From a virus (Duplodnaviria > Heunggongvirae > Uroviricota > Caudoviricetes): a stretch of DNA of 23,970 bases. Location of the stretch: the IMG/VR virus record IMGVR_UViG_2681813429_000002. One strand, given 5' to 3'. Positions 12,558 to 15,396 of this stretch are shown one piece after another (the first letter of the stretch is position 1; each line of letters begins with the position of its first letter). Both the position numbers and the translations under genes were made by a program. Under the pieces are notes generated by a model. The model saw only the letters and a list, made by a program, of their open reading frames with translations. It searched no databases and had not been told where the DNA came from.

Positions 12558-12884
12558 TCATAACACCGTCGGACAACGCAAATCGTAAATCAGCACGGAA
12601 ACAGAAAACGGCAGCTCCCCCTGAAGCAGTTCTTCCCGCTCCGCAAGATCCGGATTCCGGTACAGCATCCCGGTCAGTCGCATGGCAGCCCCCTTCATCC
12701 GGGTTAATGCCTCGCCCGGGATCAGTTCACCGTCCTCACGGATCACTTTATCCCGGCTGCCCTGAATGTAGGCCAGCAGCACGGCGGTAGCCTGACGAAC
12801 CTTGTCCATCAGCATGTCATCATCCGCGTCATGGTCGACACGCAGATGTGCCTTGATCTCTTCCAGTGTCAGTAATGCCGTCAT
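12558..12884 (-). CDS. gp6-like head-tail connector protein (108 aa)
   Basis: N-terminus MTALLTLEEIKAHLRVDHDADDDML matches the characteristic start of gp6-like connector proteins. Confidence 0.75.
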   Translation of the reverse strand: MTALLTLEEIKAHLRVDHDADDDMLMDKVRQATAVLLAYIQGSRDKVIREDGELIPGEALTRMKGAAMRLTGMLYRNPDLAEREELLQGELPFSVSVLIYDLRCPTVL

Positions 12885-13336
12885 TTTCCGCCTCCTGCAT
12901 CCCGCCCACGTTTTGCAGCCAGGGTCCAGGCTGATGAATGAGCTTCTCCGGGTTTATCTTCGGTCATACTGTTGCAGTGCCACAGCGAGCCCCCCCACGT
13001 CACCGTATCGCCGGGGTGGTAGGTTTCACCGGCTCTGAACACACCGCGGTAGAGCATCACCGGCAGGGAAAATGTTTTTTCCGTACGCTGGCCACTGCTC
13101 TGCCGGACCACCACAGAGAACAACCGCTCACCCGTCATGCTGACGTCAATATCCGCCACCCCGTCAACCAGGCATTCCCATCCCCGCATCCCGTGCGTTT
13201 TTTCATACGCCCGCCAGAGTCCGCCCTGGTGTGTGGCATACGTGCCCCGGGGAAAGGATTTTTGATCGTCAATGGCGGGGAGTATTTCCAGAGCCGTGGC
13301 ATCACGCCCGTCCTGCGGAGCCGGCAGGGCACTCAC
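12881..13336 (-). CDS. 151-aa ORF in the repeat frame of the portal C-terminal extension; starts with GTG overlapping the portal stop; possible carbohydrate-binding-like C-terminal domain
   Basis: N-terminus MSALPAPQDGRDATALEIL continues the PVPRDGRDYDPDVL repeat motif. This frame is open ~30 codons upstream of the GTG without a start codon. YHPGDTVTWGGSLWHC loosely resembles chitin-binding type 3 (CBM5/12) patterns. Confidence 0.45.
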   Translation of the reverse strand: MSALPAPQDGRDATALEILPAIDDQKSFPRGTYATHQGGLWRAYEKTHGMRGWECLVDGVADIDVSMTGERLFSVVVRQSSGQRTEKTFSLPVMLYRGVFRAGETYHPGDTVTWGGSLWHCNSMTEDKPGEAHSSAWTLAAKRGRDAGGGK

Positions 13337-15396
13337 CGCATCCAGAACCGCCTTCTGCAGAACATCCGGATCGTAGTCACGACCATCACGCGGAACATGA
13401 AAATGGCCGGCTCCGGAATAATACCGACCGCATCATTCACCGCCTTCTGCAGAACATCGGGATCATAGTCACGACCGTCGCGCGGAACAGGGATATGGCT
13501 TACAGCCTCCTTCACCATCTGTTCAAGCATCGGACGCACATCATCCGGGGTGAGACTTTTACCGTCCGCCGGCTGCGGAATATTTGCGACCGCATCATTC
13601 ACCGCCTTCTGCAGAACATCCGGATCGTAGTCACGACCATCACGCGGAACAGGGATATGGCTTACAGCCTCCTTCACCATCTGTTCAAGCATCGGACGCA
13701 CATCATCCGGGGTGAGACTTTTACCGTCCGCCGGCTGCGGAATATTTGCGACCGCATCATTCACCGCCTGCTGCAGTACATCCGGATCATAATCACGACC
13801 ATCACGCGGTACCGGAATGGCCCCCACAGCGTCATCCACCATCGCCTGCAGAACCGGACGCACCTCATCCACCGTCACATGCTTCTGTAATACCGCCGAC
13901 AGGGAAGTCAGTTTCTCTTCAAACGCTTGTGCCTGCGAGGCCATCTTCCCCTCAAATGTGCGCTGTAAATCCGCCAGCACTGTGGAGAATTCTTCTCCCA
14001 GTGCACGAATAATGGACAGTTCCCGTTCCGTCATTTTCTCAGTATCCCCCCTGAACATCGCTTTCACCGCATCATGCTCTGTTTCACTGATTGCCTTATT
14101 ACCGTCAGATGCGCCGTCAGGCAGCTGTGATGAAACTGTTTTCCCGGCAGACGCGAACGGATCCTCACGGGCATCACGACGGGACAGCGCCTCCAGACTG
14201 TAGTTCTGCTGCTGAAGATACAGTGCATCACCGCCGGCCAGGGGCGGCAGGTTCTCCCGTTTACGGGCCTCATTGGGCGTGAGAAGCGTATTTTTCACCG
14301 CATCCCCCAGCGTTTTCATGCGCCGCTCACTGTCCATTCTCAGCAGCGTGGTGACATCAAATTCTGTACTCTCGTTTTCCCCCGTTTCCAGCGCCTCATC
14401 CAGTAACAGTTCAATGGACTCAATCAGCGTCTGCAGGCACTGGGAATAATACTGCTGCTCCAGCGCCTCCACGTTGTCACTGGAAGGCGGTTGTCCCACG
14501 CCAATCTTGTAGGCCGGGACACGGAACACCGAACAGACAATTTCAGCGGTCATCTTCAGTTGTTCCACCGTCTGCGCATCCACAGGTGAAAACGTCGTGG
14601 GGTTGTATTTTGCCCCGTTGCTCAGAATGGCCGTTTTCCCCGCATTTTCGCCTGTATACCCGCTGTCCCAGTTGCTCTTCAGTTTTTTCGCATTTTCTTC
14701 CGTAATACTGCCGGGGATCTCAATCACCCCGGACGGCCTGCCGCCATTTCTGAAAAAAGACGTCGAATTTTCCTGAATATGATGCCCCTGCGTGGCCGCC
14801 AGCCCGGCGGCATACACCGGCGGCAATCCTATAAGCGGATGAAAAAAACAGTTAAACCGGTCGTGGATCACTTCCCGGGCAGGCACCGTCACCGCCTCCG
14901 TGATCCCGCAGTTCCGGTCCGGCGTGATGCGGTAGAACACCTCGCCGTCATCCGCCACCAGAGGTTCAACCCGGCTCCAGTCCAGAATACGCAGTTCTTT
15001 GATCTGCCCCCGGGCATTACGGATTTTCAGCACCACCGTATTGCCATGACGCAGTTTGGCGTTCAGCCACAGTTCAAAAAACTGGATGCGGTTCTGCTGG
15101 GCGTTGGGACGACGACAGAGGCGGGCAATATCCCCCCGGCGCGTTTCCCTGCGTATCCCATGCGCATCCGTCTGCATAAGACGCAGCCGCATTTTGGCGA
15201 TATCCTGGGATATCAGCGAAATACATGCAAACACCGCATGAAAGGAGAGGACGGCTTCAGGATCGGCTTTCACGCCCTGCTGCCAGGCGCCGGAAAAGGG
15301 CTCAGCCACCGCCTGAAACAGGCTGGTCCAGCCCGCCTCTCTTACGTCACGTCCTGATTTCTGGTTTTTTCGGGTTCGCCGTAAAAGGTTCCACAT
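13333..15396 (-). CDS. HK97-family portal protein with a ~250-aa C-terminal extension containing 54-aa tandem repeats (687 aa as the ORF stands)
   Basis: Portal motifs (AVFACISLISQDIAKMRLRL; FFRNGGRPSGVIEIPGSITEENAKKLKSNWDSGYTGENAGKTAILSNGAKY...). SD GGAG precedes the ATG at 15394-15396. The C-terminal 30 residues (GIIPEPAIFMFRVMVVTTIRMFCRRRFWMR) look like out-of-frame translation. Confidence 0.85.
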   Translation of the reverse strand: MWNLLRRTRKNQKSGRDVREAGWTSLFQAVAEPFSGAWQQGVKADPEAVLSFHAVFACISLISQDIAKMRLRLMQTDAHGIRRETRRGDIARLCRRPNAQQNRIQFFELWLNAKLRHGNTVVLKIRNARGQIKELRILDWSRVEPLVADDGEVFYRITPDRNCGITEAVTVPAREVIHDRFNCFFHPLIGLPPVYAAGLAATQGHHIQENSTSFFRNGGRPSGVIEIPGSITEENAKKLKSNWDSGYTGENAGKTAILSNGAKYNPTTFSPVDAQTVEQLKMTAEIVCSVFRVPAYKIGVGQPPSSDNVEALEQQYYSQCLQTLIESIELLLDEALETGENESTEFDVTTLLRMDSERRMKTLGDAVKNTLLTPNEARKRENLPPLAGGDALYLQQQNYSLEALSRRDAREDPFASAGKTVSSQLPDGASDGNKAISETEHDAVKAMFRGDTEKMTERELSIIRALGEEFSTVLADLQRTFEGKMASQAQAFEEKLTSLSAVLQKHVTVDEVRPVLQAMVDDAVGAIPVPRDGRDYDPDVLQQAVNDAVANIPQPADGKSLTPDDVRPMLEQMVKEAVSHIPVPRDGRDYDPDVLQKAVNDAVANIPQPADGKSLTPDDVRPMLEQMVKEAVSHIPVPRDGRDYDPDVLQKAVNDAVGIIPEPAIFMFRVMVVTTIRMFCRRRFWMR
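13336..13878. repeat. Intragenic tandem repeat array, unit 162 bp (54 aa): two ~97 percent identical copies (about 13426-13587 and 13588-13749), one diverged copy upstream, one truncated copy downstream
   Basis: Direct comparison of the sequence. Copies differ only at a few synonymous positions. Protein unit is ANIPQPADGKSLTPDDVRPMLEQMVKEAVSHIPVPRDGRDYDPDVLQKAVNDAV. Coordinates are approximate to a few bases. Confidence 0.85.

What the first reader, a model, noticed from the sequence alone, without database searches (positions are those of the whole stretch)
12881..13880. Portal C-terminal extension with near-identical 162-bp tandem repeats and a frame-breaking truncated copy that detaches a 151-aa C-terminal domain
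The portal ORF continues ~250 aa past the conserved portal region into 54-aa tandem repeats. Two DNA copies are ~97 percent identical with only synonymous differences, indicating recent duplication or ongoing slipped-strand or recombinational copy-number change. In the last copy, about 78 nt of the unit are replaced by about 8 nt. Upstream of this junction the portal frame reads GIIPEPA (parallel to ANIPQPA) and then runs out of frame to a stop. The downstream ORF (12881-13336) is in the frame that continues the repeat (…VPRDGRDYDPDVLQKAVLDAVSALPAPQDGRD…) and has a GTG start overlapping the portal stop. So an ancestral portal-repeat-C-terminal-domain protein appears split by a non-multiple-of-3 deletion, or copy number and frame vary between phase variants. 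The C-terminal domain loosely resembles a small carbohydrate-binding module.
Basis: seen in the sequence. Interest (0 to 1): 0.75.

Follow-up and report, generated by a model that had tools for sequence, protein, structure and literature searches.

The report
Portal-adjacent repeat gene, probable misassembled break
The repeats and the frame break are really in this sequence, but the break exists only in this one low-coverage draft contig and is probably an assembly error or a one-off deletion. The "portal extension" is normally a separate, uncharacterised fibre-like gene that a single extra G has fused to the portal gene in many E. coli prophages.

Summary
A 687-aa portal ORF (13333-15396, minus strand) runs into 162-bp tandem repeats. 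The third unit carries a frame-breaking lesion, and a 151-aa ORF (12881-13336) follows in the -1 frame.

The lesion is a clean 70-nt deletion plus five substitutions within 24 nt. It is private to this contig, which is the whole of LORD01000026.1 (MiSeq 2x300, 34x, CLC assembly). The other 23.7 kb is 100% identical to complete E. coli genomes whose arrays are in frame. The junction sequence is absent from 5,426 complete E. coli genomes, IMG/VR and JGI metagenomes. The most likely cause is misassembly of an array longer than the reads; a one-off deletion is the next most likely. Nothing supports phase variation or programmed frameshifting.

The wider picture is real. Copy number varies from 0 to 6 units, always in frame. 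The "extension" is a separate gene ("X") in 46 of 47 prophages from other proteobacterial species and in phages BP-4795, SP-016 and RHph_X2_26. X has an N-terminal helix, P-x-DG repeats and a beta domain with a CBM5/12-like fold. In E. coli a G5 to G6 change fuses X to the portal, and both states are common. The reported split is of low interest; the X family is modestly interesting.

The parts
14052..15396 (-). Portal core (aa 1-449), HK97-family portal
   Evidence: Pfam PF04860 at 273 bits (cut-off 39.1) and TIGR01537 at 349.5 bits (cut-off 112) on the near-identical L001 protein. It sits between the protease-capsid fusion gene and the head-tail connector gene.
14046..14051 (-). G6 run: one extra G relative to the ancestral G5, which fuses the portal to downstream gene X
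   Evidence: G5 alleles end the portal at ...AM(F/L)RGIL(R/K)K* and start X at an ATGA overlap. That C-terminal peptide is conserved in Salmonella, SP-016 and the ENA locus L008. G5 and G6 occur on identical 1326-nt core backgrounds. The exact G6 57-mer is in 747 complete E. coli records, and the G5 version in the same context is in 71.
14031..14034 (-). ATGA: native start codon of gene X (14034-14032) overlapping the ancestral portal stop (14033-14031). In this G6 allele the stop is out of frame.
13819..14034 (-). N-terminal helical region of X (MTERELSIIRALGEEF...)
   Evidence: The motif M[TND]ERELS[IL]I.A.[GS]EE is conserved in stand-alone X proteins. The AF2 model of the 245-aa X has a helix at 3-49 but low confidence.
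13657..13818 (-). Repeat unit 0 (54 aa, two P-x-DG half-units)
13495..13656 (-). Repeat unit 1 (95.7% identical to unit 0)
13406..13494 (-). Repeat unit 2, truncated after 89 nt
13402..13425 (-). Private lesion: 70-nt deletion junction (13406|13405) plus five substitutions (13424, 13423, 13421, 13413, 13402)
   Evidence: These are the only differences from E. coli R7 outside a whole-unit gain. The junction k-mers are absent from about 95 related loci, 5,426 E. coli genomes, IMG/VR and JGI.
13333..13405 (-). Out-of-frame tail of the portal ORF (IFMFRVMVVTTIRMFCRRRFWMR*)
12881..13432 (-). Open -1 frame holding the last half-repeat and the conserved C-terminal beta domain of X. The mechanically called ORF is 12881-13336 (GTG start, 151 aa).
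   Evidence: AF2 pLDDT is 83.4 and the fold is all-beta. The domain is highly conserved across genera.
12914..13054 (-). CBM5/12-like subdomain (about residues 95-141 of the 151-aa ORF; motif Y.PGDTVTWGGSLWHC)
12558..12884 (-). Head-tail connector (gp6-like) gene, whose start overlaps the stop of X (ATGA)

Best explanation
The region is the 3' half of a conserved portal-adjacent gene, here called X. X encodes an N-terminal helix, a variable number of 54-aa P-x-DG repeats and a beta domain that ends in a CBM5/12-like module. In this E. coli prophage lineage one extra G (G5 to G6, 14046-14051) has fused X in frame to the portal gene. The 162-bp array expands and contracts by whole units, presumably through unequal recombination or replication slippage, so it stays in frame.

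The frame break in the third unit is not a biological arrangement. It is a private 70-nt deletion with five adjacent substitutions, seen only in this 34x MiSeq/CLC draft contig. It is most likely a misassembly or consensus error in an array longer than the reads. On this reading the strain really carries an intact 861-aa, 3-unit portal::X ORF.

Shown: the anatomy, the privacy of the lesion, in-frame copy-number variation, and the two-gene ancestry. Inferred: that the lesion is an artefact, and the mechanism of copy-number change.
For: - The window is the whole contig LORD01000026.1, and the 687-aa product occurs on that contig only.
- Sequencing was 2x300 MiSeq at 34x, assembled with CLC Genomics Workbench 8 plus the finishing module (PMC4982294). 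The array of at least 486 nt exceeds the read length.
- There are zero mismatches to E. coli R7 across 1-13401 and 13643-23970; every difference lies inside the array.
- Re-inserting the 70 nt and reverting the five substitutions gives an intact 2586-nt ORF that is 2 nt from the natural allele L022.
- The junction sequence is absent from complete E. coli genomes, IMG/VR, JGI metagenomes and about 95 related loci.
- The array demonstrably breaks short-read assemblies. Other calls of the same 151-aa ORF lie behind 100-N scaffold gaps inside the array, and most database members are 'partial' proteins cut at contig ends.
- All other alleles differ by multiples of 162 nt, with 0-6 units.
Against: - No reads were available, so the artefact is inferred rather than shown.
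- De Bruijn assemblers rarely invent five substitutions at 34x coverage.
- A 2-nt microhomology junction fits a genuine deletion equally well.
- Unit 1 of the window is a natural unit type, so the extra unit itself is real.
- All five substitutions are complement transversions (C>G, A>T, A>T, C>G, A>T). Neither ordinary sequencing error nor ordinary mutation obviously explains this.
Confidence: 0.6

Rival explanations
1. The lesion is a genuine one-off deletion in strain 109497, for example a microhomology-mediated or slippage deletion with error-prone repair. It truncates the portal::X fusion after 2.5 repeats and strands the C-terminal domain in a 151-aa ORF. That ORF might be weakly translated by GTGA stop-start coupling. 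The result would be a pseudogenising or benign private mutation in a prophage.
For: The sequence is in a deposited assembly. There is 2-nt GC microhomology at the junction. Other prophages of this family carry independent frame breaks in the same gene: 8 of 65 other loci surveyed. Asadulghani et al. score the portal as defective in four Sakai prophages (PMC2669165). The GTGA overlap is a plausible coupling arrangement.
Against: Five substitutions within 24 nt sit beside the deletion, while 23.7 kb of flanking sequence has none against R7. The allele is seen nowhere else. Coverage was low and the array is longer than the reads. No good Shine-Dalgarno sequence precedes the GTG; the nearest AAGG is about 17 nt upstream.
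Confidence: 0.33
2. The split is regulated. Either repeat copy number and frame switch between phase variants, or a programmed -1 ribosomal frameshift in the 100-nt overlap (13432-13333) rejoins the portal-repeat part and the C-terminal domain.
For: The downstream frame is -1 and overlaps the portal frame by about 100 nt. One substitution creates a TTTT run (C ATT TTC) on which P-site slippage is conceivable. Copy number does differ between near-identical prophages.
Against: The unit length is 162 = 3 x 54 nt, and every other allele is a whole-unit variant, so copy change never shifts the frame. The overlap zone has no canonical X XXY YYZ heptamer. The junction is unique, so nothing is conserved, whereas a programmed signal would be.
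Confidence: 0.03
3. One reading: a single long portal with a native repeat and carbohydrate-binding extension is ancestral, and the two-gene forms are derived frameshift products.
For: Single ORFs of 753-1023 aa are common in E. coli. The exact G6 57-mer is in 747 complete records, and PGAP labels the G5 form 'frameshifted'.
Against: In 46 of 47 species-representative loci with an upstream portal, the portal and X are separate overlapping ORFs. The same holds in BP-4795, Salmonella SP-016 and Rhizobium RHph_X2_26. The G5-frame portal C-terminus AM.RG.L.K* is conserved at protein level across genera. G5 flanking contexts are diverse while G6 is mostly one context. 146 of the best 150 family representatives are shorter than 700 aa.
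Confidence: 0.04

Closest known systems
HK97-family phage portal proteins (PF04860 / TIGR01537)
   Same: Residues 1-449 are a standard member. They sit in a head module with terminase, a protease-capsid fusion, and gp6-like, head-closure and gp10-like genes.
   Different: Typical members, including G5 alleles of this same phage group, end at about 450-480 aa. Here about 240 further residues, or 300-570 in intact alleles, come from read-through into the next gene.
Phage collagen-like fibre proteins ending in a CBM5/12 / ChiC_BD module (BFVD 'Collagen triple helix repeat' proteins; chitinase chitin-binding domains 2d49, 1aiw, 8yug)
   Different: X is encoded between the portal and head-tail connector genes and overlaps the portal gene end, not in the tail-fibre module. 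The E. coli repeats are P-x-DG plus helix units, not G-X-Y. Pfam CBM_5_12 stays just under its cut-off.
Portal-adjacent minor head proteins such as SPP1 gp7 / Mu gpF-like (PF04233), which bind the portal and are sometimes fused to it (from my own knowledge, not checked here)
   Same: The gene lies immediately downstream of the portal gene, and natural portal fusions occur (E. coli G6 alleles, and Brevundimonas L156).
   Different: There is no sequence relationship: no PF04233 hit. X has a fibre-like architecture.
P22 gp1 portal with its long C-terminal helical barrel (from my own knowledge)
   Same: A portal polypeptide that continues well past the crown, beginning with a long predicted helix.
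   Different: There is no homology. Here the extension is a fused separate gene that ends in a beta domain.
In-frame variable-number repeats in phage structural or host-range proteins (from my own knowledge, e.g. collagen-like repeats in lactococcal and streptococcal phage proteins)
   Same: Whole-unit copy-number variation (0-6 units) occurs between otherwise near-identical phages, and units within an allele are homogenised.
   Different: The unit is long (54 aa) and sits in a gene next to, or fused with, the portal.

Membership tests
HK97-family phage portal (PF04860/TIGR01537) | Profile match above the curated cut-off | tested here: met
   PF04860 at 273.3 bits against 39.1 on the window ORF; TIGR01537 at 349.5 against 112 on L001
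HK97-family phage portal (PF04860/TIGR01537) | Location in a head-morphogenesis module next to terminase, capsid and connector genes | tested here: met
   Order: TerL, Peptidase_S78+Phage_capsid, 73-aa ORF, portal, (X), Phage_connect_1, Phage_HCP, HK97-gp10_like
HK97-family phage portal (PF04860/TIGR01537) | Dodecameric ring at one capsid vertex | not testable with these tools
   Needs a virion structure
CBM family 5/12 (PF02839) | Pfam match at or above the gathering score | tested here: not met
   25.1 bits against 26.2 for the 151-aa ORF; 15-25.4 bits in six homologues, always at the same position. Some Klebsiella and Salmonella homologues carry precomputed PF02839 hits.
CBM family 5/12 (PF02839) | Small beta fold superposable on solved chitin-binding domains | tested here: met
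CBM family 5/12 (PF02839) | Binding to chitin, cellulose or another glycan | not testable with these tools
   Needs a binding assay. The aromatic residues Y106, W114 and W119 are invariant or nearly so.
Collagen-like (G-X-Y) phage fibre proteins | Runs of G-X-Y triplets | tested here: not met
   The window repeats are IPxPxDGxD plus helix, with no G-X-Y run. True runs occur only in distant homologues P0115 and RHph_X2_26 X.
Repeat-driven phase-variable (contingency) gene | Repeat unit length not divisible by 3, so that copy change switches the frame | tested here: not met
   The unit is 162 nt. Gene spans are 2099 + 162n (n = 0-6) in 65 other loci.
Repeat-driven phase-variable (contingency) gene | Recurrent on/off switching at a homopolymer tract | tested here: inconclusive
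   G5 and G6 both occur on identical 1326-nt core backgrounds and in several flanking contexts. However, 5-6 G is short for high-rate slippage, recombination could also explain the pattern, and no within-culture data exist.
Programmed -1 ribosomal frameshift (lambda G/GT type) | Conserved slippery heptamer X XXY YYZ in the overlap of the two frames | tested here: not met
   There is none in 13432-13333. By contrast the tail chaperone gene in this window has A AAA AAG at 10251.
Programmed -1 ribosomal frameshift (lambda G/GT type) | Conservation of the two-frame arrangement in relatives | tested here: not met
   The junction is unique to this contig.
Mu gpF / SPP1 gp7-like portal-associated head protein (PF04233) | Profile match to PF04233 | tested here: not met
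   No hit at E <= 0.1-1 in X or the fused proteins. The analogy is positional only.

The most novel reading that the evidence does not exclude
X is a portal-bound virion protein whose N-terminus sits next to the portal C-terminus. It would be either an internal or ejected protein on the portal crown, or a neck fibre. On this reading the G5/G6 run acts as a contingency-like switch that decides whether X is covalently tethered to all twelve portal subunits or made as a free, translationally coupled partner, and the 54-aa repeat number tunes its reach. The window's broken copy would then be one more state of a hypervariable locus.
Probability: 0.1. Interest if true: 0.6.

Novelty: new member of a known kind. 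Interest (0 to 1): 0.3.

Why it matters
**Annotation and assembly.** This 162-bp array routinely breaks short-read assemblies, giving N-gaps, 'partial' proteins and, here, a probably spurious frame break. Split ORFs at this locus should therefore not be read as biology without long reads. PGAP labels the ancestral two-gene state 'frameshifted' and the derived fusion 'phage portal protein'. As a result X is hidden under misleading names such as portal protein, gp6-like connector and even ParA.

**Biology.** X is a large uncharacterised family, with 7,607 representatives at 50% identity. It sits directly downstream of the portal gene across Proteobacteria. Natural portal::X fusions occur in E. 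coli and, independently, in Brevundimonas. They suggest that X works in physical contact with the portal, which can be tested by virion mass spectrometry and cryo-EM.

Tried and rejected
- **Donor for the odd junction patch.** The only similarity in E. coli genomes was a 21/22-nt match in a tail-fibre C-terminal gene (ENGIIPEQA) at E = 8, with no extended homology. I rejected it as chance. Nothing matches within the window at up to 3 mismatches on either strand.
- **Exact-pattern scans.** Searches of IMG/VR and JGI metagenomes for the patch returned zero hits.
- **Other contigs encoding the identical 151-aa ORF.** I hoped for independent copies of the break. They turned out to be scaffolds with 100-N gaps inside the array.
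- **Programmed frameshift.** There is no slippery heptamer in the overlap zone.
- **Solved structures.** A PDB sequence search with the X profile gave only designed helical repeats and a weak CIS baseplate hit.
- **Literature.** Searches on portal repeats, O157 prophages, Stx long-tailed phage proteomics, collagen-like or chitin-binding proteins near the portal, and phages 2851 and BP-4795 found no description of X, the array or the G-run. The phi330 paper reports virion mass spectrometry, but nothing on phi330's portal or X is in the text or held supplements. Its Sanger record has several frame breaks in this gene and is uninformative. Strauch 2008 on phage 2851 is not held.
- **Structure of full-length X.** The AF2 model had low confidence (pLDDT 63.9), so I used it only for secondary structure.
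Full report
**What is in the sequence**

On the minus strand a 687-aa ORF (15396..13333) begins with a standard HK97-family portal domain. 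Pfam Phage_portal covers residues 54-382 at 273 bits (cut-off 39.1). The ORF then continues for about 300 residues.

Tandem Repeats Finder reports a 162-bp array at 13406-13809 with 2.5 copies and 95% matches. In register the units are 13818-13657, 13656-13495 and a truncated third unit, 13494-13406. Units 0 and 1 differ at 7 of 162 positions, with one amino-acid change (Q->K). Units 1 and 2 differ at 4 of their first 70 positions, all synonymous.

After the truncated unit the portal frame reads 24 junk residues and stops at 13333. A 151-aa ORF (13336..12881) starts at a GTG that overlaps this stop. It lies in the -1 frame, which is open from 13432 and continues the repeat sequence (HFHVPRDGRDYDPDVLQKAVLDAVSALPAPQDGRD...).

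**What the lesion is**

The window is the complete contig LORD01000026.1 of GCA_001562345.1. The 687-aa product is on record for that contig alone. The strain is E. coli 109497. It was sequenced with 2x300 MiSeq reads at 34x and assembled with CLC Genomics Workbench 8 plus its finishing module (PMC4982294).

Against the complete genome of E. coli R7 the window has no mismatch at all from 1 to 13401 or from 13643 to 23970. Every difference lies inside the array. Relative to R7 the window has:
- one extra whole unit of a naturally occurring type;
- a clean 70-nt deletion (AGACGG...GGTAAGC; junction 13406|13405; 2-nt GC microhomology);
- five substitutions within 24 nt of the junction, at 13424, 13423, 13421, 13413 and 13402.

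Putting the 70 nt back and reverting the five bases gives an intact 2586-nt, 861-aa ORF that is 2 nt from the natural allele L022.

The junction sequence is found nowhere else:
- not in 5,426 complete E. coli genomes;
- not in IMG/VR;
- not in JGI metagenomes;
- not in about 95 related loci fetched here.

The only near match was 21 of 22 nt in a tail-fibre gene at E = 8, which is chance.

The array is known trouble for short reads. The other contigs on which the same 151-aa ORF is called are scaffolds with 100-N gaps inside the array. The protein clusters are also full of 'partial' fragments cut at contig ends.

Taken together, these points favour a misassembly or consensus error (about 0.6). 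A genuine one-off deletion is next (about 0.33). One oddity remains unexplained: all five substitutions replace a base by its complement. That has a probability of about 0.004 if the three alternative bases were equally likely.

**Why it is not phase variation or programmed frameshifting**

The unit is 162 = 3 x 54 nt. In 65 other loci the gene span is always 2099 + 162n (give or take the one G described below), with n = 0, 1, 2, 3, 4 or 6. Copy-number change therefore never alters the frame.

Copy number does change quickly. Prophages 99.8-100% identical to the window over 24 kb carry one unit (IPCEC48, TUM9975) or two units (R7, S12, AVS0151, 1442, 1434).

The 100-nt overlap between the two frames contains no X XXY YYZ heptamer. 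Because the junction is unique, nothing about it is conserved. The same window does hold a textbook slippery site, A AAA AAG at 10251, in the tail-chaperone G/GT pair.

**What the 'portal extension' really is**

In relatives from other genera the portal stops at about 450-480 aa, and the repeat-plus-C-domain protein is a separate gene whose start overlaps the portal stop. Examples:
- Salmonella L006: portal 479 aa, X 246 aa;
- a JGI metagenome phage, L007: portal 450 aa, X 263 aa, ATGA overlap;
- ENA locus L008;
- Stx1 phage BP-4795: portal 454 aa, ORF59 461 aa;
- Salmonella phage FSL SP-016: 451 + 347 aa;
- Rhizobium phage RHph_X2_26: 462 + 473 aa.

Among GTDB species representatives, 65 loci encode the C-terminal domain. 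They span Enterobacterales, Pseudomonas, Burkholderiales, Rhizobiales, Sphingomonas and Brevundimonas. Of the 56 with a full 3.5-kb upstream flank, 47 have a portal hit upstream. In 46 of those 47 the portal and X are separate overlapping ORFs. One, Brevundimonas L156, is an independent in-frame fusion of 616 aa.

A profile search of 1.84 billion representatives finds 7,607 family members at E <= 1e-3. Of the best 150, 146 are shorter than 700 aa, so they are stand-alone proteins.

In E. coli the two states differ by one G. G5 alleles end the portal with ...AM(F/L)RGIL(R/K)K* and start X at MTERELSIIRALGEEF on an ATGA overlap. G6 alleles, including the window at 14046-14051, read ...AMFRGDTEKMTERELS... 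straight through.

The G5-frame C-terminus is conserved as protein in other genera (AMLRGLLAK*, AMIRGFLTK*, SLRGIIQNG*). The two-gene state is therefore ancestral.

Among the 66 loci with a complete gene, including the window:
- 31 are intact two-gene alleles;
- 26 are intact fusions of 753-1023 aa, including phage 2851;
- 9 are broken elsewhere, including the window and phi330.

G5 and G6 occur on identical 1326-nt portal-core backgrounds. G6 is found in several flanking contexts, so the change has recurred or been shuffled by recombination. The exact G6 57-mer is present in 747 complete E. coli records, and the same context with G5 in 71, so G6 is not a sequencing error. PGAP marks a G5 allele as 'frameshifted', which reverses the evolutionary direction.

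**What X looks like**

Full-length X has four parts:
- a conserved N-terminal motif, M[TND]ERELS[IL]I.A.[GS]EE;
- a long predicted helix;
- a variable set of P-x-DG plus helix units, which are true G-X-Y collagen-like runs in distant homologues (P0115 and the Rhizobium phage);
- a strongly conserved beta domain of about 140 aa.

Foldseek against viral models returns many 'collagen triple helix repeat' and ChiC_BD phage proteins. Pfam CBM_5_12 matches every homologue at the same position but stays just under its cut-off, at 15-25.4 bits against 26.2. No solved structure is related by sequence. No paper I could find describes the gene, the array or the G-run.

**How it most likely works (inferred)**

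X is built like a fibre. Its gene start overlaps the end of the portal gene, an arrangement typical of translational coupling. X has been fused to the portal C-terminus at least twice independently. If fusion alleles are functional, the N-terminus of X should lie close to the portal C-terminus in the virion. I recall that phage 2851, which carries a fusion allele, was propagated by Strauch et al. 2008, but that paper was not available to check.

Whether X sits inside the head on the portal crown or reaches the neck cannot be decided here. The repeats would then act as an in-frame length module that changes by recombination or slippage.

If the window's lesion were real, the result would be a portal carrying a truncated X that lacks its binding domain. 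A free C-domain might also be made by GTGA coupling. The GTG has no convincing ribosome-binding site.

**Verdict**

The headline feature, a frame break that detaches a domain, is private to one draft contig and is probably an artefact, so it is of low interest. The real features are:
- an in-frame 54-aa variable-number repeat;
- a widespread uncharacterised portal-adjacent gene;
- a common one-base fusion/fission polymorphism.

Each is an ordinary kind of thing, but none appears to have been described for this family, and they are modestly interesting.

Noticed in passing
window 14046-14051 (G-run) and 14031-14034 (ATGA): A G5/G6 polymorphism decides whether the portal and the next gene are two overlapping genes or one fused ORF. 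Both states are common in E. coli prophages and occur on identical core backgrounds. PGAP labels the ancestral G5 state 'frameshifted'.
   Followed up: yes
L006, L007, L008, L096, L098, L099, L101-L157; window 12881-14034: Gene X is a large uncharacterised family: 7,607 representatives at 50% identity, 975 of them at E <= 1e-30. It sits directly downstream of the portal gene in prophages across Proteobacteria and is variously annotated as portal protein, gp6-like connector or hypothetical.
   Followed up: partly
L156:2073-3923 (Brevundimonas sp. CEF1): An independent in-frame fusion of a portal core with a short X (616 aa), unrelated to the E. coli G-run event.
   Followed up: partly
window 13402, 13413, 13421, 13423, 13424: All five substitutions flanking the deletion replace a base by its complement (C>G, A>T, A>T, C>G, A>T). 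No templating sequence was found, and the pattern remains unexplained.
   Followed up: partly
L010-L012 (2818-2917) and L008: Metagenome scaffolds carry runs of about 100 N exactly inside this array. Protein databases hold hundreds of 'partial' fragments ending in it, one of them named 'plasmid partitioning protein ParA, partial' (P0132).
   Followed up: partly
window 15608-17545 (-): The 645-aa 'major capsid protein' is a fusion of a prohead protease (Peptidase_S78) and a capsid domain (Phage_capsid) in one ORF. In the distant relative L007 the two are separate genes.
   Followed up: no
window 10251 (-), genes 10242-10616 and 9937-10218: There is a canonical slippery heptamer A AAA AAG at the end of the tail assembly chaperone gene, with the -1 frame running into the 'tail assembly protein T' ORF. 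This is the expected G/GT-type programmed frameshift.
   Followed up: partly
window 10631-11347 (-): The major tail subunit carries a C-terminal Ig-like domain (precomputed Pfam Ig_3/I-set hits).
   Followed up: no
window 19334-19387: A short 27-nt tandem duplication (2 copies, 85% matches) lies inside the 5' end of the terminase small-subunit gene (19267-19830, minus strand).
   Followed up: no
window 1-399: The contig starts inside an Ail/Lom-family outer-membrane protein gene. In the matching complete genome (R7) that gene is itself annotated as an incomplete pseudogene.
   Followed up: no
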